Shown here: in pieces, positions 2,556-15,155 of the stretch
Numbering within the stretch: position 1 is the first letter of the stretch
Layout of the letters: each line of letters opens with the position of its first letter
Source: an uncultured Bacillota bacterium
GTDB lineage: Bacteria > Bacillota_I > Bacilli_A > Erysipelotrichales > Erysipelotrichaceae
Reading direction: 5' to 3'
NCBI GenBank assembly: GCA_949287785.1
Contig: CASEHR010000094.1
Span: 1 to 25,404, forward strand
Length of the DNA stretch: 25,404 nucleotides
The notes under the pieces: model-generated
Seen by the model: only the letters and a program-made list of their open reading frames with translations
The model's database searches: none
Told to the model about the DNA's origin: nothing
Made by a program: the position numbers and the translations under genes

Positions 2556-3077
2556 ATGGATATAAATGAAGAGATAAAAAGAAATAAAAGCCGGCACCGC
2601 CAGATCCTGATCGATAAGGATTCACCGTATCTTCAAAGACTGCGCATGATCATCGACACCAAGAATCACAAGTCTCTCATTACCTGGGGTCTTGCTTTGG
2701 CGAGTGAAAGCATCGCGATCTATGAGACCAAATATCAAAGCGGCATCGCTCAATATGCATATGACCTTACCTGCCTTTGGGCAAGAGGTGAGATCAAAAT
2801 GCCAAGAGCCAAGAAAGCGATCCTAGAATGTCATGCCTTGGCGAAGTCATTAGACGATAAAGCTGATATCGCTTTGGTCCATGCGATCGGACAAGCTTTA
2901 TCGATCGTTCATACCAGAGGTCATTCGTTGGGTTATCCGATCTACGATCTTACATATCAGATCTTAAAAAACGACACCAAAGATATCAAGCCGATACTGG
3001 ATAGGCGGATGGATCATTATATCGGTCTGTTCGATCAACTTGTGATCGATAACCGGTGGGCATCCTTTATCGTTTGA
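2556..3077 (+). CDS. Imm5-like (putative immunity) alpha-helical protein, orphan
   Basis: 173-aa ORF filling the trmD-rplS gap. The segment WARGEIKMPRAKKAILECHALAK...HAIGQALSIVHTRGHSLG resembles the Firmicutes Imm5-like family (recognised from memory, not searched). It is the only plausible plus-strand gene here. Confidence 0.65.
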   Translation: MDINEEIKRNKSRHRQILIDKDSPYLQRLRMIIDTKNHKSLITWGLALASESIAIYETKYQSGIAQYAYDLTCLWARGEIKMPRAKKAILECHALAKSLDDKADIALVHAIGQALSIVHTRGHSLGYPIYDLTYQILKNDTKDIKPILDRRMDHYIGLFDQLVIDNRWASFIV

Positions 3078-6620: not shown

Positions 6621-7328
6621 TCAAAACTCCGGTTGGAGAGCGATTGCTGCATCAAACTCAGCCTCGGTTATATATCCTTCCGACAGCATGCACTCCAAAA
6701 CATGTTGCTGCCTTTTATAGGTGTTGGGATTGTTTTGCGACAAGGCGTAGTTTGCCGGGCTGTTAGGAATTCCGGCTAAAAGCGAAGCTTCATAGACCGA
6801 CAGATCATCCGGTTCCTTTGCGAAATAGCCGATAGAAGCATCATAGACATTGAAATAACCATCACCGTAATTGACATTATTGATATACATCTCCAATATC
6901 TCATCTTTAGTGTAGACATCTTCAAAGTCATAAATAAAGAAGTATTCAGCCAGCTTAGCGAAAAAACCCCGGTCATAACCGAAATAGACGTTTTTGACCA
7001 GTTGTTGAGTGATAGTCGAGCCACCTTCCTGCATTGACCCACTGATGATATTGGTCAGTACCGCCCGGAAAAGAGCGATAAAATCGATTCCTTCGCGCTC
7101 GTAAAAGCGTCTGTCTTCAACAGCGACGAAGGCATCTATAAGATCTTCATCGATATCATCAAAATATGTGTATGTCGACGTATTGTCGACCACATACGAA
7201 TAGACATCGACGACGGGTAGACTCTCTTTGGCATCAGTATAAATGTAATAAGCAACACCAAACATACTAACAGCCAGGATCATGATGATCAGAAAGACCA
7301 TCAGCAATAATTTACGAAAGATCTTCAT
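6621..7328 (-). CDS. Monofunctional peptidoglycan glycosyltransferase (GT51 domain only)
   Basis: N-terminal TM helix; AVEDRRFYEREGID, GGSTITQQLVKN, KDEILEMYIN, ASLLAGIPNSP, RQQHVL; no transpeptidase domain. Start is ATG 7328 or GTG 7340. Confidence 0.9.
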   Translation of the reverse strand: MKIFRKLLLMVFLIIMILAVSMFGVAYYIYTDAKESLPVVDVYSYVVDNTSTYTYFDDIDEDLIDAFVAVEDRRFYEREGIDFIALFRAVLTNIISGSMQEGGSTITQQLVKNVYFGYDRGFFAKLAEYFFIYDFEDVYTKDEILEMYINNVNYGDGYFNVYDASIGYFAKEPDDLSVYEASLLAGIPNSPANYALSQNNPNTYKRQQHVLECMLSEGYITEAEFDAAIALQPEF

Positions 7329-7329
7329 A

Positions 7330-7354
7330 AAGAAAAACACGAATCATTCGTGTT
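7330..7354 (-). terminator. Rho-independent terminator after yneF
   Basis: Minus strand AACACGAA-TGA-TTCGTGTT followed by TTTCTTT, just after the yneF TAA. Confidence 0.7.
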
Positions 7355-7357
7355 CAC

Positions 7358-7573
7358 TTACTTCTGATTCATCGATTTCATGACCGCACGGATCTGTGCT
7401 TCACTCGGTTTTCTGCCCATCTGCATGAACATCGCTCTGATCATCTTCTCATTGATCGGTGGATTCTTCTCCAATTGTTTTTGGAAATAATGTCTTGCGA
7501 TGAAGAAACCGGCAACACCGCCAAGAACAACACCGATAAGCAAATAAATAAATGTCGTTAGACCGAATCCCAT
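7358..7573 (-). CDS. yneF: YneF/UPF0154 small membrane protein
   Basis: TM helix followed by LEKNPPINEKMIRAMFMQMGRKPSEAQIRAVMKSM, the family hallmark; SD GGAGG. Confidence 0.95.
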   Translation of the reverse strand: MGFGLTTFIYLLIGVVLGGVAGFFIARHYFQKQLEKNPPINEKMIRAMFMQMGRKPSEAQIRAVMKSMNQK

Positions 7574-7590
7574 AATTTTCCTCCATTTTA

Positions 7591-7739
7591 TAGCCTAAGG
7601 GGTAGTAAAATTTCCCTGACGACCAGGTGGGTGTCCTGTATGATCCTTCAGGATTCCACTTCATGGCATTCTACACCAAACCATAACTCCGGACTCCCTA
7701 ATTTTACATGTAGGAATTTTATCATGTCCCCCTAGGCTC
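7591..7739 (-). ncRNA. ssrS: 6S RNA (SsrS), short variant of about 150 nt
   Basis: Terminal stem AGCCUAGGGG/CCCCUUAGGCU, second stem UAAAAUUCCU/AGGGAAAUUUUA, central bubble, then GGGAGUCC/GGACACCC with the ACACCCACCUG motif typical of Firmicutes 6S RNAs. TATAAT sits 4-6 nt upstream. Located downstream of hisS-aspS, as B. subtilis 6S-1 is. Confidence 0.8.
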
Positions 7740-7743
7740 ATTA

Positions 7744-7889: not shown

Positions 7890-7926
7890 AAAAAGATGCA
7901 AGGAATGAAAAGCCCTGCATCTTTTT
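7890..7926. terminator. Terminator after the giant coiled-coil gene (potentially bidirectional)
   Basis: AAAAAGATGCA(AGG)...(CCC)TGCATCTTTTT inverted repeat starting 2 nt after the TGA at 7929. Confidence 0.8.
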
Positions 7927-7928
7927 GA

Positions 7929-10900
7929 TCAGCGTTTGAAGAAACTGTGCTTGGTATTTACCTTGTCGATAACGATCTTATAATCATCAAGGATCGCCCG
8001 ATAATCAGCTTTGAATTTATCGCCGCTTTTTATATAGCTGTCCTTGGCTTTGTTATAAGCTTCCCTGGCTTTCAAGATCTCTTCGTTGACCGTTTTAGCT
8101 CGCTTGGTAAGTTCTTTTCTTTCTTCAGCGAGCTTGGCTATCTTGTCTTCGCTTTCCTTCTTGTAGCGTTCGATCTTAGCTTCTTCGTTTTTCATAAGCT
8201 CGGCAACTCTATTTTGATAATCAGCTTCCAACAACTTCAGATCATCGCGTTTCGTCGCCAGTTCTTTATTGAGATCGTCGTTAAGTCTATTGATGTCAAG
8301 CTGGCGATTACTGTTCTTGTCTTCTTCGACTAAGATCAGGGCATCGTACTCGTTTTTAAGAGCATTGCGACGTTCTTCTATCGTCTGTTTCGACATATTG
8401 AAATAAGTCATCAGCTCATCGACTTTGTTTCTGTAGGCATCCTTGATGACATTTTCCTGCTCCAGGATCTTCAGAACCATCGCATCGAGACTTTCGGTAT
8501 ACTCTTTGACCTTGGCCTCGTGTTCCCTGCGTTTATCATCGATAGCCTCTTCGTGATCGACCTTGGCCTTTTTTAAAGCTTTCTTATGTTCACTTATCAA
8601 ATTGGTCTTCTGTAAGTCGAGATCTTCGATAACTTTATAAACACTGTCGATCTTGGCGCTGTGATCGGCTTTTAAGGCACTTATCAGTCTCTCACAATCC
8701 GCAAGTTCACTACTATAAGCTTCCTTGCTCTTTTCGATCTGTCGCTTGACGACGGCAAGATCATTTTCAAGATCTTCAAGATCCTTTTTGTAACTGATGT
8801 CTGCCATGTCACGATCCTGGGTAAGCTTGACGATTTCATCACGAAGTGATGCGTTATGATCACTCAAAGCTTTGATCCGATCAGCAGTTGCCTTTCTCAG
8901 ATCCGCCAGCTCATTCTGATAAAGACGGCGTGTATTTAGATAGTTAGTATCAAGTTCACGGTGCTTTTGATCATACTCATCCTTAAGATCGCTTATTTCT
9001 TTATTCATCTTTTCATCGAGATCACGGTATTGACGATCAAGGTCGCTGTTTAGGCGTTTCAGATCGAATAAGCGTTCTTCCAGATCCTTACGCAAACGCT
9101 CATTGGCGTCATTTAGTTTACCGATATCAGCATTGACTTTAGCTTCTTTAGCCTTGTATTCGATCAGGAGGTCTTCTTCCTTGCGGGCGAGACTGGCTTC
9201 ATGATCGTTCTTTTTCTTTTCGATATCCTGAAGCAAGACGAAGCGCGCATCGTTATTAGTTGCGATGATGTCCTGCAAGTCCTTGGTATAGATCGCCTTC
9301 TTCTGGGTCAGCTCATCATTGAGCTTGGCGACATAAGCCTCGTATTCCCTGTTCTTCTCTTCAGCTTTTTCTTCGATCTGTTTATAAGCATCTTCGAGTT
9401 CTTTTGCGACAACCTCTTTTTCACTTACCTTCGCAGCGATCTTTTGACCATACTCCTTATCGAGCAGCGATCTTTCATGGTCAGCCTTGGCGATGTCCTC
9501 CTTTTTAGCGCGGATCCTGGCATCATAATCGCTTACGAGCCTTGTATACGCCAAGCGTTTTTCTTCGATCGCCGATGTCAGCTCTTTCAGTGTCTTATCT
9601 TCGTTTTCCCTATCGGTGATCTCTTGATTCTTCAGATCCTCGGTTTCTTTGATAAAATCGTCTTTTAGAGCTTTGATCTTATCATCATATTCACTTACCA
9701 TCGTGCTCAGTCTGCCATCGGCATCTTTGAGCTTCATCTCGTTTTCATCTTTGAGTCTGGCAAGCTCATCTTTTTTCGCTTCATTGATCTTCAGTAATTC
9801 GTTGTATTCCTTTTCATGATCCTTCTGGATCACTTCACGCTCATTTTTCAGGCGCTCTTCCTCTTTGGCAAATTCCTCATCTTTCAATACCAGGCGGTCT
9901 TCGTGCTCCTTGATGATACCGGCAAACACCTCATCACGTGCGCCGATCTTCTCATTCAGATCCTTTTCGATCGCCAAACGTTCCTTTTCGTAAGAACTGT
10001 TCAACTCATCGATCGATTTCTGATGGACTGATTCAAGATCAGCCAGCTCTTTATCGTGAGCGTCTTTGAATGTCTCTTTTCTTTTTGCAAATTCGGTTTC
10101 AGACTCTGCCGCTTCACTTTCTACCTGAGTGATCTTCGCTTTGGTAGCTTCGATCTCAGCGTTGATATTGGCAATGACCTCTTCGTGGTTTTTAGCTCTG
10201 GTCTCCTTAGCTTCTTTTAAAGCCGCCAACTGCGCTTCAAAAGTCGCCAGCTCTTTAGTGTAGTAGAGATCTTTCATCTCCACCTCTTTAGCTAAAGCGA
10301 TATTCTCGGCATTTAAAGCTTCACGTTCCTTTTCAAAAGCATCGCGGTGTTCAACGGTGGCGTTTTTGATCGCATCGATCTTGGCATCGTACTCTTCTTT
10401 TAATTTCTGGATCGTTCGCTTGAAGTTGAGATCTTCATCGGTCAGACGCTGATTGAGCGACATCATCTTGATCTCGTGTTTTTGCATATCCGAGTCGATC
10501 TCATCCTGCAGGATCATATTGGCCTTGCGCAAACTGCTCAACTTATCCTGATACTCACCCTTGAGGGCGTCATAATGTGCTCTTATCTCTTTTGTCTTTG
10601 TCAGATAGCGTCTTTGGTTCATCCGATAATCGGCATTGAGCCTTGAGATCTCTTTTTCCTTGTCGATGACCAGGGAATCTTTCATCTCGACATATCTTTC
10701 CCGCATCTCTTCAAGCGCCTGCCGTAAAGTCGATTCTTCCGTCGCCTTCCCAGCTTCGTGCTTGGCGATAACGTCTTGTTTTTTGTTGTCGAGAGCCGTA
10801 GTCAGATCGTCGATCTCTTTTTGTGCGTTGATCTTATAGGACGCCAGCTCATTTTCTTTTTTAGCCAGGATATCCTTCAACGTCATCAGCTCATCATTGG

Positions 10901-11858
10901 CTTTCTTTTCCGTTTCCTGCAATTGTCTGTTTTCAAGCTCGATGACTTCGTTTTCCTGATCGTATTTTTTATTGAGAGAATCTTTAGTCTTTTCAAAATC
11001 ACTAAGCGCATTGTTGTATGAGTTAGTCAATTCCGTCTTGCGCTTGGTGAGTTCCAATAATTCACTCTTTTGTCTTTCCAGTTCGTTGTCAAATTCTCTC
11101 TTCATCTTCTCGTATTCCTCATTCAGGTCACTTTTTGATTTAGCGATCTGATCGCCATGATCCTGTGCTTGTTCATCGATCTTACTTTCGATCGCAGCCT
11201 CTTTTGTGCGATGACTGTCTCTGATCGTTGCGCTCTTGTTAGTCAGCGCATCTTTACGTACACTTTCTTCTTCGATCAGTTTATTGTAATTATCGATCAT
11301 CTGTGCTTCTTCGCTTTTTACTTCTTCTTCGATCTTTTTGTACTCACCGCTCAGACGCTTGAGATTCTCTTCGATCGTATCCAGAGTTTTTTTCGCCTCG
11401 GCCATGATCCTTGTTTCCTCTTTATCGTATATTACTTTCAGATCATTGGTCTTTTCATCAAAGTCCTTCTTGAGAGCGACGATCTCCTTATCGTTGCTGC
11501 CTTTGATTTTGGCTAATTCCGAATCAGCTCGCTTTTCGATATCCGCCTTGATCATAGCTATCCGTCTTTTCTCGGCGTCGAGTTCTTCATTGACCTTTTC
11601 GATCGCTTTTTTGATCGTGTCACTTTCCTTTTTCAGTTCGGCTACTTCTTCCTTTATGATGACTTTATCATCTTCAAGATAAGCCCTCGCTTCATCGACA
11701 CCGGTCTTGCGCTTTTTTTCATAAGCCTCTTTTTGCATATCAAAAGAGGCCAAGTCATTCTCTAACCTGGCTATATCGAGTTTTATGGCATCGATATTGG
11801 CGCTGATCTCCTCAGCGCTCAGCTTATCGATCTTCTTCCTGTATAGAAAATCTAACAT
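7929..11858 (-). CDS. Hypothetical 1309-aa, almost entirely coiled-coil cytoplasmic protein
   Basis: Long ORF with SD GGAGG (11862-11866) and its own terminator. E/K/D/A/L-rich. By eye I found no Pro and no Trp. No signal peptide, TM segment, Walker A motif or globular domain. Confidence 0.9.
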   Translation of the reverse strand: MLDFLYRKKIDKLSAEEISANIDAIKLDIARLENDLASFDMQKEAYEKKRKTGVDEARAYLEDDKVIIKEEVAELKKESDTIKKAIEKVNEELDAEKRRIAMIKADIEKRADSELAKIKGSNDKEIVALKKDFDEKTNDLKVIYDKEETRIMAEAKKTLDTIEENLKRLSGEYKKIEEEVKSEEAQMIDNYNKLIEEESVRKDALTNKSATIRDSHRTKEAAIESKIDEQAQDHGDQIAKSKSDLNEEYEKMKREFDNELERQKSELLELTKRKTELTNSYNNALSDFEKTKDSLNKKYDQENEVIELENRQLQETEKKANDELMTLKDILAKKENELASYKINAQKEIDDLTTALDNKKQDVIAKHEAGKATEESTLRQALEEMRERYVEMKDSLVIDKEKEISRLNADYRMNQRRYLTKTKEIRAHYDALKGEYQDKLSSLRKANMILQDEIDSDMQKHEIKMMSLNQRLTDEDLNFKRTIQKLKEEYDAKIDAIKNATVEHRDAFEKEREALNAENIALAKEVEMKDLYYTKELATFEAQLAALKEAKETRAKNHEEVIANINAEIEATKAKITQVESEAAESETEFAKRKETFKDAHDKELADLESVHQKSIDELNSSYEKERLAIEKDLNEKIGARDEVFAGIIKEHEDRLVLKDEEFAKEEERLKNEREVIQKDHEKEYNELLKINEAKKDELARLKDENEMKLKDADGRLSTMVSEYDDKIKALKDDFIKETEDLKNQEITDRENEDKTLKELTSAIEEKRLAYTRLVSDYDARIRAKKEDIAKADHERSLLDKEYGQKIAAKVSEKEVVAKELEDAYKQIEEKAEEKNREYEAYVAKLNDELTQKKAIYTKDLQDIIATNNDARFVLLQDIEKKKNDHEASLARKEEDLLIEYKAKEAKVNADIGKLNDANERLRKDLEERLFDLKRLNSDLDRQYRDLDEKMNKEISDLKDEYDQKHRELDTNYLNTRRLYQNELADLRKATADRIKALSDHNASLRDEIVKLTQDRDMADISYKKDLEDLENDLAVVKRQIEKSKEAYSSELADCERLISALKADHSAKIDSVYKVIEDLDLQKTNLISEHKKALKKAKVDHEEAIDDKRREHEAKVKEYTESLDAMVLKILEQENVIKDAYRNKVDELMTYFNMSKQTIEERRNALKNEYDALILVEEDKNSNRQLDINRLNDDLNKELATKRDDLKLLEADYQNRVAELMKNEEAKIERYKKESEDKIAKLAEERKELTKRAKTVNEEILKAREAYNKAKDSYIKSGDKFKADYRAILDDYKIVIDKVNTKHSFFKR

Positions 11859-11884
11859 GGACCTCCATCAAGTATATGATAGCA

Positions 11885-13627
11885 CTATTCAGCTATCTTG
11901 ATCTTTAAATCGTCTAGTTGTGCCTGGTCGACGGTGTTTGGTGCTTCGCTCATCAGACACATCGCACTGGCTGTCTTCGGGAAAGCAACGACATCTTTGA
12001 TGTTGTCGGTTCCGCATAAGATCATGATCAGCCTTTCGACACCGATACCGACACCTAAATGCGGTGGCGCACCATATTCAAAAGCTTCTAGGAAGAAGCC
12101 GAATTTCTCCTGCGCCTGTTCTTTAGAAAGGCCTAGGGCTTCGAAGACTTTTTCTTGCATTTCCTGGTCATGGATCCTGACCGATCCCGAAAGAAGCTCA
12201 TAGCCGTTCAATACGAGATCATATGCCCTTGAATAGCAATTGCCCTTATCGGTCAGCAACTTATCGACATCCTCATCATGCGGGGCTGTAAACGGATGGT
12301 GACAGGCAACATAGCTGCCGGTCTCTTTTGAGTATTCAAACATCGGAAAATCGGTGATCCAGGCAAACTTATAGCTTCCTTCATCGATCATTCCCTGATC
12401 ATGAGCGACCTTGTTGCGCAATGCGCCCAAAGCGACATTGGCAATACCCTTTTCATCAGCGACCATCAGGATCAGATCGCCTTCTTCGACCGCCATCTCT
12501 TTGATGAGGCTGTCTTTTTCTTCATCGCTCATAAACTTGGCGATCGGACCGCTGAAAGTTCCGTCGGTATATTTGAGGTAAGCTAAAGCTTTGGCTTTGT
12601 AGATCTTGACGAATTCCGTCAAGTGATCGAGATCTTTCCGTGAGTACTTGCCGGCTGCGCCTTTGACATTGATGCCTTTGATCAAACCGTCGTTTTCGAT
12701 CGTGCCGGCAAAAACACTGAATGATGTAGCTTTGAACACTTCGTTCAGATCATGCAAGCGCATATCGAAGCGAAGATCCGGCTTATCACTGCCATAATAG
12801 CGCATCGCATCGTCATATTTGATCCTGACGAAGTGTTCTTCCAGATCGACACCTTTGATCTCTTTGAAGATCTTGTGCATCAATCCTTCAACGACTTTAA
12901 AAATATCCTCTTCATCAGCGAAACTCATTTCGATATCGATCTGATCAAATTCCGGCTGACGGTCAGCTCTTAAATCTTCATCACGGAAACAGCGGGCGAT
13001 CTGAAAGTCCCGATCCATCCCGCCGATCATGAGCAGCTGCTTATAGATCTGCGGTGATTGCGGCAAAGCGTAAAACTTACCCTTATACAGCCGTGATGGT
13101 ACCAGATAGTCCCGTGCTCCTTCAGGTGTTGATTTTGACAATATCGGCGTTTCCACTTCGACAAAGTCAAGACTGTGCAAGTAATCTCGCGTGATCATCG
13201 TGACCTTATCCCGGATAAGCAGATTCGAAAATATCGGCTTACGACGCAGATCGAGATAACGATATTTCAATCTGACATCTTCCAAAGCATCGGTTTTGTC
13301 GGCGATGATCATCGGTGTTGTCTTGGCGACATTCAGGATCTTAAAGCTCTCCGCCCGGACTTCGATCTCACCGGTCGGAAGATTTTTGTTTGGTACATCC
13401 TTGATGGCGACAGTACCCGTAACCTCTAAAACATACTCATTGCGGATATCTTTGATCGCATCCTGAAAACCTTCATTGAAGGTGATCTGCGTGATCCCGT
13501 AGCGATCTCTCAGATCGATAAAGCAGATCGAACCCAGATTACGCCTTTTGGCGACCCAGCCGCACAAAGTGATTACTTTACCGGCATCTTCTTTTCTCAA
13601 TTCCCCATTGGTATGCGTTCTATTCAT
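11885..13627 (-). CDS. aspS: Aspartate-tRNA ligase
   Basis: GWVAKRRNLG, FIDLRDRYG, TPEGARDYLVPSR, LPQSPQIYKQLLM, FRDEDLRADRQPEF, GAPPHLGVGIG. ATG 13627 has the best SD spacing and overlaps the hisS end. Confidence 0.99.
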   Translation of the reverse strand: MNRTHTNGELRKEDAGKVITLCGWVAKRRNLGSICFIDLRDRYGITQITFNEGFQDAIKDIRNEYVLEVTGTVAIKDVPNKNLPTGEIEVRAESFKILNVAKTTPMIIADKTDALEDVRLKYRYLDLRRKPIFSNLLIRDKVTMITRDYLHSLDFVEVETPILSKSTPEGARDYLVPSRLYKGKFYALPQSPQIYKQLLMIGGMDRDFQIARCFRDEDLRADRQPEFDQIDIEMSFADEEDIFKVVEGLMHKIFKEIKGVDLEEHFVRIKYDDAMRYYGSDKPDLRFDMRLHDLNEVFKATSFSVFAGTIENDGLIKGINVKGAAGKYSRKDLDHLTEFVKIYKAKALAYLKYTDGTFSGPIAKFMSDEEKDSLIKEMAVEEGDLILMVADEKGIANVALGALRNKVAHDQGMIDEGSYKFAWITDFPMFEYSKETGSYVACHHPFTAPHDEDVDKLLTDKGNCYSRAYDLVLNGYELLSGSVRIHDQEMQEKVFEALGLSKEQAQEKFGFFLEAFEYGAPPHLGVGIGVERLIMILCGTDNIKDVVAFPKTASAMCLMSEAPNTVDQAQLDDLKIKIAE

Positions 13628-14894
13628 ATTCATTTCCTCCCAGTTTCCGATCAAGATAAGCAACTAGATCATCCGATTTAACCACTTCTTGATTCTTTGA
13701 TCTATTATCTTTGATATTCACTTTCATATCTCTGATCTCATCTTCACCGATGATGATCGTATATCTCGCCTGATAACGGTCGACCGATTTGAATTGCGAT
13801 TTGAGCGATCGTTTATAGTAATTGACGACGACGCTGAAACCATTTCGCCGCAATATCTCAGCTACCTTCAAAACATATGGATCACCCTCACTCAGATCGA
13901 TGATATATACATCAGGTGTGGTCGTAAGATCAGGAAAAGCGCCGGCTTGTTCGACAGCCATGATCAATCGTTCCTCACCGATCGCAAAGCCGATTCCGGA
14001 CATCGCCGGTCCGCCCATTTCCGCAACGAGGTTATCATAACGACCGCCACCGAAGATAGTGCTTTGTGAGCCTGCTTCTTTATTGGTATTCATGACTTCA
14101 AAGACGGTATCCGTATAATAATCAAGACCTCTGACCATGTGCTCGTCGATCACATACGGTATTTCCAAAGTATCGAGATATTTTAAGACATCTTTGAAAT
14201 ACTCGCTCGCTTCATCATCCAGATAATCTTTGATGGTCGGTGCATTTTTAATCACATCCAGTTCATGATCGATCTTGCAGTCAAGGATCCGCAAAGGATT
14301 CTTATCTAAGCGCATCTGACAATCAGCACACAGCTTGTCAATGTGCGGTCGGAAATAGTCCTTTAAAGCCTCGATATAACGACTCCTTGAAGCATTATTG
14401 CCTAAGGTGTTCAGATGTACCTCGATGTCCTCGATCCCAAGTGTTCTTAAAAAGGTGTAGCCTAATGCGATTACTTCGGCATCGATCATAGCGGACTTTT
14501 CACCCAACACTTCAATACCCAGCTGGTTGAACTGTCTCTGCCGGCCCTTTTGCGGCCTTTCATAGCGGAACATCTCTTCGATATATGCCAGTTTGACCGG
14601 CGCTTCCAATGCATACATCTTGTGCTGGATATAAGCGCGGATTACCCCGGCTGTACCTTCCGGTCTTAACGTCAGGGAATCCTTGCCGTTGATGCTGAAG
14701 GTAAACATCTCCTTAGTGACCATATCGCTGGTATCGTTGTCTTTTTTAAATACCGCTGTATCTTCGATCACCGGCGTCTTGATCATCTTGTAACCATAGA
14801 GATTCATAAAATGGGTAAACAAATCGTTCACATAGGTGAATCTGGCATACTCATCATCCAGGATATCATAAGTTCCTCTGACATTCTGTAACAT
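13620..14894 (-). CDS. hisS: Histidine-tRNA ligase
   Basis: LRPEGTAG, FRYERPQKGRQRQFNQ, VRGLDYYT, GGGRYD, GFAIGEER; SD GGAGG. Confidence 0.99.
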   Translation of the reverse strand: MLQNVRGTYDILDDEYARFTYVNDLFTHFMNLYGYKMIKTPVIEDTAVFKKDNDTSDMVTKEMFTFSINGKDSLTLRPEGTAGVIRAYIQHKMYALEAPVKLAYIEEMFRYERPQKGRQRQFNQLGIEVLGEKSAMIDAEVIALGYTFLRTLGIEDIEVHLNTLGNNASRSRYIEALKDYFRPHIDKLCADCQMRLDKNPLRILDCKIDHELDVIKNAPTIKDYLDDEASEYFKDVLKYLDTLEIPYVIDEHMVRGLDYYTDTVFEVMNTNKEAGSQSTIFGGGRYDNLVAEMGGPAMSGIGFAIGEERLIMAVEQAGAFPDLTTTPDVYIIDLSEGDPYVLKVAEILRRNGFSVVVNYYKRSLKSQFKSVDRYQARYTIIIGEDEIRDMKVNIKDNRSKNQEVVKSDDLVAYLDRKLGGNEYE

Positions 14895-14908: not shown

Positions 14909-15120
14909 AAATAAAAAACGTCCATCTAAGGACGTCATAGCGCGGTACCACCTTAGTTCATGCCTGAAAAGACATGCCCTTTATACTATTAACGCTAGTT
15001 GACGTCTATCCTTTTAAGATAGAACCTAAAGCCGTGTCCGATCTTTTAAATTCTGAAAGACTTGCAGCAACCGTCTTTTCTCTTATTTCCCTTTAAAAAA
15101 TGCCCTCGACCCTAAGGCCT
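14909..15120 (-). ncRNA. T-box riboswitch leader of hisS-aspS (transcription attenuation type)
   Basis: Stem I with AGAGA and GGUUGCUG boxes; specifier region CGGACACG (15033-15040); Stem II CUAUCUU/GGAUAG; IIA/B pseudoknot with GCGUUA; Stem III CAUGUC/GGCAUG; T-box AAGGUGGUACCGCG (14941-14954) with antiterminator AAGG/CCUU and GCG/CGU; terminator ACGUCC/GGACGU plus U-tract. Confidence 0.93.
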
Positions 15121-15131
15121 ACGGGCATTTT
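15095..15131 (-). terminator. rel terminator (overlaps T-box promoter and Stem I)
   Basis: Minus strand AAAATGCCC-GTA-GGCC-TTAG-GGTC-GA-GGGCATTTTTT beginning 4 nt after the rel TAA. Confidence 0.75.
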
Positions 15132-15155
15132 AACATTATTTAAAGACTCTTTCAA
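15127..15155 (-). promoter_or_regulatory. SigA promoter for the hisS-aspS T-box leader, embedded in the rel 3' end
   Basis: TTGAAA (15155-15150), 17 nt, TGt-TAAAAT (15132-15127, extended -10). Predicted +1 is A at 15120, the first base of Stem I. Confidence 0.8.

What the first reader, a model, noticed from the sequence alone, without database searches (positions are those of the whole stretch)
7929..11858. Giant proline-free 1309-aa coiled-coil protein inserted between aspS and 6S RNA: candidate cytoskeletal or scaffold filament
Seen: scanning the whole translation I found no Pro and no Trp, roughly a dozen Gly and one Cys, and no signal peptide, TM helix, Walker A motif, SMC hinge or globular domain. 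A motif like L-x-x-[ED]-[YH]-x-x-[KR]-[ILV]-x-x-[LI] recurs (LKGEYQDKLSSL, LKEEYDAKIDAI, MVSEYDDKIKAL, LVSDYDARIRAK, LKDEYDQKHREL, LKADHSAKIDSV, IKDAYRNKVDEL, LEADYQNRVAEL), which suggests 11-residue (hendecad) periodicity. Both termini carry short aromatic plus basic motifs (MLDFLYRKK...; ...KHSFFKR). The gene has a good SD, starts 26 nt after aspS and has its own terminator. Established: hendecad coiled coils occur in bacterial scaffolds such as Streptomyces Scy; short Phe/basic amphipathic ends act as membrane-targeting sequences in MinD and FtsA; B. subtilis 6S-1 lies directly downstream of aspS. Inference: an unbroken helix of this length could span up to about 195 nm (1309 x 0.15 nm). 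It may be a membrane-tethered filament or spacer specific to this lineage, inserted into the hisS-aspS-ssrS locus and possibly expressed under T-box control.
Basis: partly seen in the sequence, partly recalled or inferred. Interest (0 to 1): 0.75.

Follow-up and report, generated by a model that had tools for sequence, protein, structure and literature searches.

The report
Giant near-straight coiled-coil rod protein family
This is a real, conserved, unnamed gene for a 1309-residue all-helical rod protein (about 190 nm if one continuous helix), built from five 245-residue units, that keeps its exact length while its sequence drifts, found only in a few chicken-gut Erysipelotrichaceae genera that lack the usual rod-shape machinery; it is most likely a fixed-length spacer or scaffold.

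Summary
The ORF is real. It lies on the minus strand at 7929-11858 and encodes 1309 aa with 0 Pro, 0 Trp, 12 Gly and 1 Cys. It sits between aspS and 6S RNA and has its own terminator.

It has no Pfam, NCBIfam, PHROG or PDB relative. Homologues occur in three Erysipelotrichaceae genera and in cultured Anaerorhabdus furcosa, all annotated as hypothetical.

The hydrophobic seam has one sharp, phase-coherent period of 3.604 residues (18/5), with nothing at 3.50 or 3.67. It is organised in five 245-residue super-repeats, each running heptad-like, then hendecad-like, then 18/5-like.

Orthologues at 42-81% identity align over all 1309 residues without a gap. Family lengths fall into classes of about 1300 and about 1760 aa, a difference of roughly two units.

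Only the terminal peptides are conserved family-wide, and the C-terminal Phe is the sole invariant residue. The protein is strongly acidic (net -57).

Carriers lack MreC, true MreB and MinD.

Best reading: a self-associating, nearly unsupercoiled coiled-coil rod that acts as a length-defined spacer or scaffold with docking peptides at its ends. The structure is well supported. The function is inferred.

The parts
7929..11858 (-). Gene for the 1309-aa proline-free rod protein (stop codon included)
   Evidence: Orthologues in 8 of 10 genomes of the genus. dN 0.123 with saturated synonymous sites against the closest orthologue.
11760..11858 (-). N-terminal conserved peptide, residues 1-33: M-x-(L/F)-F/D..K(K/R)K-I-x-K-L-S-x-E-E-I. 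Hydrophobic-aromatic plus basic, followed by the first helix.
   Evidence: Among the three most conserved stretches in the genus. The motif is recognisable in distant members.
11010..11744 (-). Super-repeat unit 1 (about residues 39-283): heptad-like 39-80, hendecad-like 107-163, then about 3.6
   Evidence: Family-averaged local phase of the hydrophobic seam. Self-offset peaks at 245 and 490.
10275..11009 (-). Super-repeat unit 2 (about residues 284-528): heptad-like 277-332, hendecad-like 359-410. The best-conserved part of the rod, residues 246-513, covers most of this unit.
11043..11123 (-). Most conserved block of the rod in the genus (residues 246-272). It holds 6 of the 9 columns invariant in alignment A2.
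9540..10274 (-). Super-repeat unit 3 (about residues 529-773): heptad-like 515-560, hendecad-like 601-654
8805..9539 (-). Super-repeat unit 4 (about residues 774-1018): heptad-like 767-808, hendecad-like 852-895
8070..8804 (-). Super-repeat unit 5 (about residues 1019-1263): heptad-like 994-1040, hendecad-like 1097-1125. The 18-residue deletion of the two most distant genus members falls here, at 1170-1188.
7932..7970 (-). C-terminal peptide (residues 1297-1309, ...KHSFFKR). F1307 is the only invariant column in the 17-sequence family alignment.
11862..11866 (-). Shine-Dalgarno GGAGG, 3 nt before the ATG, inside the 26-nt aspS-ORF spacer
   Evidence: Similar GGAG(G) in orthologues.
7890..7926 (-). 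Intrinsic terminator hairpin (14 bp, 9-nt loop) followed by a U-run
   Evidence: -17.7 kcal/mol, z -3.87. Missed by the pattern scan because the loop exceeds 8 nt.
11885..13663 (-). aspS, immediately upstream
   Evidence: tRNA-synt_2, 2e-123; GAD; OB anticodon-binding domain
13620..14894 (-). hisS
14925..15123 (-). T-box leader of the hisS-aspS(-rod gene) unit. Promoter-like site at 15127-15155, leader terminator at 14917-14936.
7588..7741 (-). 6S RNA downstream of the terminator

Best explanation
The gene encodes a cytoplasmic, strongly acidic protein that is essentially one amphipathic alpha-helix about 1280 residues long.

Its narrow hydrophobic seam repeats every 3.604 residues. [quoted passage not shown] Helices that bury this seam against each other would therefore form a nearly straight, very weakly left-handed coiled coil, about 190 nm long at 0.148 nm per residue.

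The rod is modular. It has five 245-residue units (68 seam periods, about 36 nm each). Each unit has a heptad-like stretch of about 45 residues, a hendecad-like stretch of about 50 residues, and a stretch of about 110 residues with 18/5 spacing.

Selection acts on length and register rather than on sequence. Orthologues at 42-81% identity have no indel over 1309 residues. More distant members differ by register-preserving steps of 18, 7, 11 or 22 residues. Whole-protein lengths jump by about two units.

The only family-wide conserved sequence features are short peptides at the two ends. The most likely function is therefore a fixed-length spacer, tether or scaffold: the rod self-associates, and the N- and C-terminal peptides dock to the membrane or to partner proteins a defined distance apart.

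Shown: the gene is real and under purifying selection, and the periodicity, modularity, length conservation, end conservation and taxonomic range are as described.

Inferred: self-association, rod length, cytoplasmic location, docking by the ends, and the spacer or scaffold role. A link to cell shape or division is suggested only by the absence of MreB/MreC/MinD in carriers.
For: Periodicity:
- A single peak at 3.604, power 98.5, against a 200-shuffle maximum of 10.1. Power is 8.2 at 3.50, 0.2 at 3.667 and 0.4 at 3.643.
- The same peak (3.598-3.607) appears in 29 family members, with the second harmonic at 2.25.
- The register is visible by eye in 18-residue rows from about residue 150 to the end.

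Seam:
- It is about 120 degrees wide. The central 40-degree sector is 78% hydrophobic or aromatic, including 20% Tyr and 8% His, and the opposite face is D/E/K/R/polar.

Super-repeat:
- Self-offset maxima at 490 and 245 residues (+3.9 and +3.2 SD). These recur in distant members.
- A 245-residue wave in local phase is conserved among homologues.

Length and indels:
- Zero gaps among five sequences of 1309 aa at 42-81% identity.
- An 18-residue deletion plus 2+2+3 in the members at about 20% identity.
- A total insertion of 490 residues in a 1790-aa relative.
- Two length classes, 1274-1333 and about 1757-1790 aa.

Other points:
- Purifying selection: dN 0.123 with pS 0.77 (saturated); aspS dN is 0.064.
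- Ends: F1307 is the only invariant column of 17 sequences. N- and C-terminal motifs align across genera.
- All helix in AF2: H15-439, 455-830, 843-929, 952-1169.
- No TM segment or signal peptide; net charge -57 here and -36 to -102 in the family.
- The 18/5 periodicity and the 3.63 reference value: PMC4786415.
Against: - There is no experimental or expression evidence. Only DNA runs from chicken-gut metagenomes hold the sequence.
- Oligomeric state and strand orientation are unknown. The homodimer prediction for residues 246-490 gave no verdict.
- The AF2 monomer model has low confidence (pLDDT 58, pTM 0.27) and breaks the helix at 440-454, 831-842 and 930-951.
- Core occupancy by LIVMFY is only about 45-57% per main position, which is weaker than in classical coiled coils. 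Bulky Tyr on the seam midline fits poorly with a simple two-stranded straight pair.
- No conserved gene neighbour points to a partner.
- The C-terminal peptide varies. It is basic in this genus, acidic plus hydrophobic in others, and lacks Phe in some 1757-aa members.
Confidence: 0.5

Rival explanations
1. Self-assembling cytoskeletal filament or lattice, intermediate-filament-like as for crescentin, FilP or Scy. Rods would associate laterally with staggers of one or more 245-residue units to build cables or a cortical mesh. The length and super-repeat would be conserved because they set the assembly lattice.
For: - Long phase-coherent seam and a conserved 245/490-residue super-repeat that would allow in-register staggered packing.
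- Carriers lack MreB/MreC/MinD, so they might need another shape or position system.
- A. furcosa-type genomes carry two paralogues of 1635 and 1636 aa about 5 kb apart.
Against: - There is no long-range periodicity of charged residues of the kind that drives staggered packing in myosin or IF rods; only the 3.6 signal appears.
- A net charge of -57 disfavours lateral bundling without counter-ions or partners.
- There are no head or tail domains, and no DivIVA-like GYDxxEVD motif.
- Nothing here tests polymerisation.
Confidence: 0.25
2. Intramolecular antiparallel hairpin, like an SMC arm or colicin Ia. The chain would fold back near residue 650, giving a rod of about 95 nm with both terminal peptides at the same end.
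For: - Gly639 and Gly647 lie near the exact middle.
- Exact length conservation would be needed to keep two arms matched.
- Both ends carry similar aromatic/basic peptides in this genus.
- AF2 breaks and folds the helix, at low confidence.
Against: - The seam phase runs through the midpoint without a break.
- The mid-protein glycines are not conserved in the family consensus.
- The indels seen (18 residues near 1170; +490 residues in the C-terminal part) are not mirrored in the other arm.
- No hinge or head domains.
Confidence: 0.08
3. Apolipoprotein- or GPR-like amphipathic helix that lies on a membrane or lipid surface along its whole length. The straight 3.6 seam would face the bilayer.
For: - A straight seam is what a helix lying on a flat surface needs.
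- The family profile weakly matches apolipoprotein A-IV chains (E 1e-6). One of 17 members touches Pfam Apolipoprotein (1.2e-4).
- Agrobacterium GPR is a 2115-aa, mostly helical, apolipoprotein-like shape protein (PMC8262873).
Against: - Net charge of -36 to -102 across the family would repel anionic bacterial membranes.
- Acidic residues dominate the polar face and basic residues are only weakly enriched at the seam edges.
- The window protein has no PF01442 hit and no TM anchor.
- The matches are of the compositional or periodic kind.
Confidence: 0.07
4. Spurious or decaying ORF, or a mobile/phage gene such as a tape measure.
For: No named family. Low-complexity-like composition.
Against: - Intact, same-length orthologues in three genera, with saturated synonymous and low non-synonymous divergence.
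- Housekeeping neighbours and genome-typical GC.
- No PHROG hit.
Confidence: 0.01

Closest known systems
Scy and FilP of Streptomyces (DivIVA-like superfamily; PMC9858780)
   Same: Gram-positive, cytoplasmic, very long non-heptad coiled-coil proteins. Scy is recalled (from memory) as similar in size, about 1300 aa. Both are proposed or shown to be scaffolds.
   Different: - No GYDxxEVD motif and no PF05103 hit.
- Period 3.604 rather than the 51/14 = 3.64 recalled for Scy; power at 3.643 is 0.4.
- Different phylum.
- 245-residue super-repeat.
- No detectable sequence homology.
GPR (Atu1348) of Agrobacterium tumefaciens and RgsE of Sinorhizobium (PMC8262873)
   Same: Giant bacterial proteins dominated by continuous alpha-helix (1700 aa in GPR), with weak apolipoprotein A-IV-type similarity. 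GPR is needed for cell shape and its C terminus is functionally important.
   Different: - GPR has two N-terminal TM segments, many PF01442 hits and a Pro-rich region.
- The window protein has none of these.
- Unrelated lineage; no homology detected.
Length-conserved, sequence-divergent spacer coiled coils (giantin, Spc110, ROCK, WbdD; review PMC5082667)
   Same: Sequence diverges fast while length stays fixed. The functional elements sit at the ends.
   Different: - Those proteins carry recognisable terminal domains or TM anchors and are mostly heptad-based.
- Here the ends are peptides of about 10-30 residues.
- Here the rod is 18/5-periodic, and its length appears to change in steps of about 245 to 490 residues.
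EzrA and DivIVA/GpsB of Firmicutes
   Same: Cytoplasmic helical division scaffolds of the same phylum.
   Different: Carriers already encode a separate EzrA (284-312 bits) and a GpsB-like protein. The window protein matches neither family and has no N-terminal TM.
SMC / Rad50 / SbcC arms
   Same: Very long coiled coils.
   Different: No ABC head, Walker A or hinge. One distant member gives only sub-threshold coiled-coil-level hits to SMC models (18.8 bits against a cut-off of 567).

Membership tests
DivIVA-like superfamily (DivIVA, GpsB, FilP, Scy) | N-terminal (R)GYDxxEVD motif followed by a dimeric heptad coiled coil (PMC9858780) | tested here: not met
   A regex for GY[DNE]..[ED][VI][DE] finds nothing in 29 family members. 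No PF05103 hit.
Scy/FilP-type rod | 51-residue (51/14 = 3.64) repeat periodicity (value recalled from the Scy/FilP literature, not checked in a paper here) | tested here: not met
   Power at 3.643 is 0.36, against 98.5 at 3.604.
Hendecad (11/3) coiled coil | Dominant 3.67 periodicity | tested here: not met
   Power at 3.667 is 0.22 overall. Only five local stretches of about 30-55 residues exceed 3.62.
18/5 (3.6) non-supercoiled coiled coil (structural class; PMC4786415) | Hydrophobic positions recurring 5 times per 18 residues (spacing 4-3-4-3-4) | tested here: met
   Mod-18 occupancy peaks at positions 4, 8, 11, 15 and 18 (42-57%), in all homologues tested. Peak at 3.604 and harmonic at 2.25. 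That the helices actually pack as a coiled coil is not testable with these tools.
SMC / Rad50 / SbcC | N- and C-terminal ABC ATPase halves (Walker A/B) and a central hinge or zinc hook | tested here: not met
   No Walker A. No Pfam or NCBIfam hit for the window protein.
EzrA | PF06160 match and an N-terminal TM anchor | tested here: not met
   No PF06160 hit in this protein and no TM segment. A separate bona fide EzrA lies elsewhere in the genome.
Apolipoprotein-like / GPR | Multiple PF01442 domains; for GPR, two N-terminal TM segments | tested here: not met
   0 Pfam hits for the window protein at E<=1. 1 of 17 relatives at 1.2e-4. No TM segment.
Phage tape measure protein | Match to a phage family, and phage morphogenesis neighbours | tested here: not met
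   No PHROG hit. Neighbours are aspS, hisS, 6S RNA and a transglycosylase.
Single alpha-helix (SAH) domain | E/K/R-rich helix without a hydrophobic seam | tested here: not met
   Strong seam: the central sector is 78% hydrophobic or aromatic.
MinD/FtsA/MinE-type terminal membrane-targeting sequence (functional class) | Short terminal amphipathic helix with aromatic and basic residues that binds membranes | not testable with these tools
   - Sequence character fits in this genus: the N-terminal 15 residues have net charge +1 to +3 and the C-terminal 10 residues +1 to +4, each with Phe.
- The resemblance to the MinE and PspA/Vipp1 N-termini is from memory only.
- Other genera have acidic C-terminal peptides.
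- Binding needs liposome assays.

The most novel reading that the evidence does not exclude
The protein could be an intracellular length standard with quantised size.

If an undistorted helix has 3.63 residues per turn, a 3.604 seam gives one supercoil turn in about 500 residues. The 245-residue unit would then be about half a supercoil turn, so the same face of a two-stranded rope would recur every ~36 nm.

Five-unit (about 190 nm) and seven-unit (about 260 nm) versions would then set a cellular dimension in Erysipelotrichaceae that have lost MreBCD and Min. Candidates are septal-ring or cell diameter, or the spacing of division or wall-synthesis sites. The two terminal peptides would dock the ruler to the membrane or the divisome.

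Caveat: the pitch estimate ranges from about 360 to 820 residues if the reference value is 3.64 to 3.62.
Probability: 0.12. Interest if true: 0.85.

Novelty: new variant of a known kind. Interest (0 to 1): 0.62.

Why it matters
Long coiled-coil spacers and scaffolds are known, but few bacterial examples show so clearly that length and helical register are what selection keeps.

This family offers several unusual features together:
- a phase-coherent 18/5 seam over about 1150 residues, or roughly 1280 with slow phase drift;
- a conserved 245-residue super-repeat;
- gap-free evolution down to 42% identity;
- size that changes in two-unit steps;
- end peptides as the only conserved sequence.

For coiled-coil structural biology it is a natural test case for nearly unsupercoiled bundles.

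For bacterial cell biology it is a candidate ruler or scaffold in gut Firmicutes that lack MreB/MreC/Min. A cultured carrier, Anaerorhabdus furcosa (WP_078712457.1), makes it experimentally approachable.

The protein is unannotated in Pfam, NCBIfam and PDB, so a family definition would itself be new.

Tried and rejected
- **Plus-strand reading.** The coordinates read on the plus strand give only stops; the gene is on the minus strand.
- **Single-sequence searches.** The search of 5.8 bn proteins gave only the protein itself and two relatives. The same search with the G119 homologue gave only itself.
- **PDB.** Nothing with the single sequence. The profile gave only weak hits to apolipoprotein A-IV, designed coils and keratin, taken as periodic or compositional similarity.
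- **ESM Atlas.** The best cluster scored 0.89. It is a 1300-aa cluster auto-named "Ninein long coiled-coil" on 27% of members, with recognition far below the reliable range. It is a lead only, and possibly the family's own cluster.
- **AF2 of residues 1-1170.** Almost all helix, but pLDDT 58 and pTM 0.27. The tertiary arrangement is not usable, so no fold search was run on it.
- **Complex prediction, two copies of residues 246-490.** No answer (score 0.00, controls not run). This is not evidence either way.
- **Charge periodicity for staggered assembly.** None beyond 3.6.
- **Conserved neighbours across genera.** None. Within the genus only aspS, 6S RNA, the yneF-like gene and the transglycosylase recur.
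- **Literature.** A search for "octadecad" returned only fatty-acid papers.
- **DivIVA/GpsB resemblance.** The N-terminal K-L-S-x-E-E-I looks like the start of DivIVA/GpsB, but the idea was dropped because the defining GYDxxEVD motif is absent.
- **Other C-terminal readings.** Beta-clamp-binding, SSB-tail-like and FtsZ-C-terminal-peptide-like readings of the C-terminal peptide were considered from memory. No tool could test them, so they remain speculation.

Full report
**1. The observation**

The window has an open frame at 7929-11858 only on the minus strand. It encodes 1309 residues with 0 Pro, 0 Trp, 12 Gly, 1 Cys and 45% charged residues. GC content is the same as the rest of the window.

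There is no Walker A motif and no hydrophobic stretch that could be a TM segment or signal peptide; the maximum 19-residue hydropathy is 0.36.

No family matches: Pfam at E<=1, NCBIfam, PHROGs, and PDB sequences.

The gene starts 26 nt after the aspS stop, behind a GGAGG. It ends at a strong hairpin plus U-run (-17.7 kcal/mol, z -3.9). After that come 6S RNA (48 bits), a small yneF-like ORF and a monofunctional transglycosylase. Upstream are recJ, apt, relA, a T-box (82.6 bits, E 2.8e-17, below Rfam's gathering score), hisS and aspS.

No promoter-like site lies between aspS and the ORF, so co-transcription with hisS-aspS is inferred for this genome.

**2. It is a real gene with relatives**

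The genome is a 1.15-Mb MAG (82% complete) of an uncultured Erysipelotrichaceae bacterium.

Eight of ten genomes of the genus carry an orthologue. Most have it directly after aspS. In G001 an opposite-strand M28-like peptidase gene intervenes, and in G006 the same peptidase gene precedes the rod gene on a contig separate from aspS.

Against the closest orthologue (81% identity), dN is 0.123 while synonymous sites are saturated (pS 0.77). For aspS in the same genome pair dN is 0.064. So the gene is under strong purifying selection, but changes about twice as fast as a housekeeping enzyme.

A profile of the genus sequences was searched against 1.84 bn representatives. Besides generic coiled-coil noise, it found a distinct set of proteins. 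They are 1275-1333 aa long (or 1636, 1790, 1830 or 2758 aa), have at most 5 Pro, and match collinearly.

Profile-profile comparison gives 98.8% and 99.1% probability over more than 1000 collinear columns. This is subject to the usual caveat that periodic composition inflates such scores.

With a 17-sequence profile, 401 genomes of the GTDB family gave strong hits only in three genera: g1 8/10, g5 33/36, and g45 4 genomes.

One member is WP_078712457.1, a "hypothetical protein" of cultured Anaerorhabdus furcosa. That lineage has two paralogues of 1635 and 1636 aa about 5 kb apart.

No source gives any member a functional name.

**3. Anatomy of the rod**

*Periodicity.* Fourier analysis of LIVMFY positions gives one sharp line at 3.604 residues, with power 98.5. 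The maximum over 200 shuffles is 10.1. Power is 8.2 at 3.50, 0.2 at 3.667 and 0.4 at 3.643. The same value (3.598-3.607) is found in all 29 family members examined, together with the second harmonic at 2.25.

Written in rows of 18, the hydrophobic residues stack in columns 4, 8, 11, 15 and 18, with partial occupancy of 1 and 7, from about residue 150 to the C-terminus. This is the 18/5 pattern: 7+7+4, a delocalised stutter. [quoted passage not shown] Helices packed on this seam would therefore be almost straight.

*Seam.* On a helical wheel that follows the local phase, the seam is about 120 degrees wide. Its central sector is 78% hydrophobic or aromatic and unusually rich in Tyr (20%) and His (8%). 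The rest of the surface is acidic, basic or polar.

*Super-repeat.* The local phase of the seam oscillates with a wavelength of about 245 residues, in register in all homologues. A BLOSUM self-offset scan peaks at 490 and 245 residues, although the repeats are only 12-15% identical.

From the family-averaged phase, each unit consists of three parts:
- a heptad-like stretch (period below 3.58), at residues 39-80, 277-332, 515-560, 767-808 and 994-1040;
- a hendecad-like stretch (period above 3.62), at 107-163, 359-410, 601-654, 852-895 and 1097-1125;
- about 110 residues at about 3.6.

Since 245/68 = 3.603, the unit is 68 seam periods.

*Structure prediction.* AF2 on residues 1-1170 predicts helix almost throughout (H15-439, 455-830, 843-929, 952-1169), but with pLDDT 58 and pTM 0.27. 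It supports "all helical, no globular domain" and nothing more.

**4. What evolution preserves**

Five sequences at 42-81% identity align over all 1309 positions with no gap. The two genus members at about 20% identity are gap-free to residue 1170. They then lack exactly 18 residues plus 2+2+3. A 1790-aa relative has insertions that sum to 490 residues.

In the wider alignment, gap lengths are dominated by 7, 11 and 22. Alignments at this identity are uncertain, so this is only indicative.

Full-length members fall into two classes, 1274-1333 aa and about 1757-1790 aa.

The only invariant column in 17 sequences is the C-terminal Phe, F1307. The N-terminal M-x-(L/F)-F...K-(K/R)-K-I-x-K-L-S-x-E-E-I segment and the C-terminal ...(L/F)D-x-L-...-(I/L/V)-F-K-K tail are the only motifs recognisable across genera.

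Within the genus, the best-conserved part of the rod is roughly the second unit, residues 246-513.

**5. Interpretation**

A hydrophobic stripe running for about 190 nm cannot stay exposed to solvent. A protein with net charge -57 (-36 to -102 in relatives) is unlikely to lie on an anionic membrane.

The simplest reading is homo-oligomerisation into a nearly unsupercoiled coiled-coil rod.

The pattern of fast sequence drift, frozen length and register, and conserved ends is the published signature of spacer or ruler coiled coils (PMC5082667). I therefore favour a fixed-length spacer, tether or scaffold whose ends dock to the membrane or to partners. In this genus both ends are aromatic plus basic, which resembles a membrane-targeting sequence. 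In g5 the C-terminal peptide is acidic plus hydrophobic plus Lys, which looks more like a protein-docking peptide.

Oligomer number and strand orientation are open. Bulky Tyr on the seam midline argues against a simple two-stranded x-layer packing, but this is inference only. The homodimer prediction gave no verdict.

**6. Context clue**

Five carriers, four of them at least 97% complete, have EzrA and a GpsB-like protein. They have no MreC and no MinD above cut-off. Their only MreB-model hits are 61-76 bits in ORFs of about 607 aa, which by length and score I take to be Hsp70/DnaK (not checked).

Across 401 genomes of the family, MreC is present in 235 genomes and 61 of 83 genera. It is present in 0 of 10 g1 genomes, 0 of 36 g5 genomes, and none of the four g45 carriers.

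Other MreC-less genera lack the rod protein, and three genera are not independent observations. This is therefore an association worth testing, not evidence of function.

**7. Comparison with known systems**

- It is not a DivIVA-like/Scy/FilP protein. It has no GYDxxEVD motif and not the 3.64 period recalled for Scy.
- It is not SMC-like: no heads or hinge.
- It is not EzrA, which is encoded separately.
- It is not a tape measure.
- It is not a member of the apolipoprotein/GPR group: no PF01442 hit and no TM segment.

Functionally, the nearest analogues are Scy/FilP, GPR and eukaryotic spacer coiled coils.

Other unrelated families among the profile hits also show long coherent near-3.6 periodicities (3.63-3.66). 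The phenomenon as such is therefore not unique. What is new is this family and its combination of features.

**8. Verdict**

This is a new, unannotated family and a new variant of the long coiled-coil scaffold or spacer kind. The structural description is solid. The function is inferred at moderate confidence.

Noticed in passing
window 7588-7741 (-) and 7360-7573 (-): A 6S RNA (48 bits, just above the gathering score) is followed within a few bases by a small yneF/UPF0154-like membrane-protein ORF, then a monofunctional transglycosylase (6621-7340). The yneF-like gene and the transglycosylase are conserved downstream of the rod gene in the genus (6S not checked in the relatives).
   Followed up: partly
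window 14925-15123 (-): The T-box leader upstream of hisS-aspS scores 82.6 bits, below Rfam's gathering score of 93, but with E 2.8e-17 and full model coverage. A promoter-like site lies at 15127-15155 and a leader terminator at 14917-14936.
   Followed up: partly
L038:141-1370 (G001) and L056:3091-4347 (G006): In two genomes of the genus a roughly 410-aa M28-like peptidase gene on the opposite strand lies immediately upstream of the rod gene. In G001 it sits between aspS and the rod gene; in G006 the pair is on a contig separate from aspS. In those genomes the rod gene must have its own promoter and is not under the T-box.
   Followed up: partly
proteins P0016, P0041, P0052, P0075, P0090, P0092, P0094, P0122, P0147: An unrelated-looking set of 1100-2500-aa proteins has an N-terminal TM segment (...YRQLDRNNRSL...) and, in most, a C-terminal ...EVELILE... 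motif. They show strong coherent seam periodicity at 3.63-3.64 (power up to 142). This appears to be another uncharacterised family of giant non-heptad rods.
   Followed up: no
L062:1-2976 and 8001-12911 (A. furcosa-like contig): Two paralogous rod genes of 1635 and 1636 aa lie about 5 kb apart on the same strand. They are 29% identical over the C-terminal 977 residues with few gaps, which raises the possibility of a heteromeric pair.
   Followed up: partly
genomes G000, G010, G003, G119, G014, and family-wide: Genera carrying the rod protein have no MreC, no MinD over cut-off and only weak, sub-MreB-level hits to the MreB model (61-76 bits in ~607-aa ORFs, probably Hsp70). 61 of 83 genera of the family have MreC.
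   Followed up: partly
window 2556-3077 (+): An ORF with an Imm5-like putative immunity-protein domain (2.9e-29) lies on the opposite strand next to trmD-rimM.
   Followed up: no
proteins P0014, P0017-P0019, P0021, P0025, P0026: Several profile hits are lipoprotein-type proteins (N-terminal lipobox ...LTGC) with helical regions of period about 3.62. They are probably surface coiled-coil proteins unrelated to this family.
   Followed up: no
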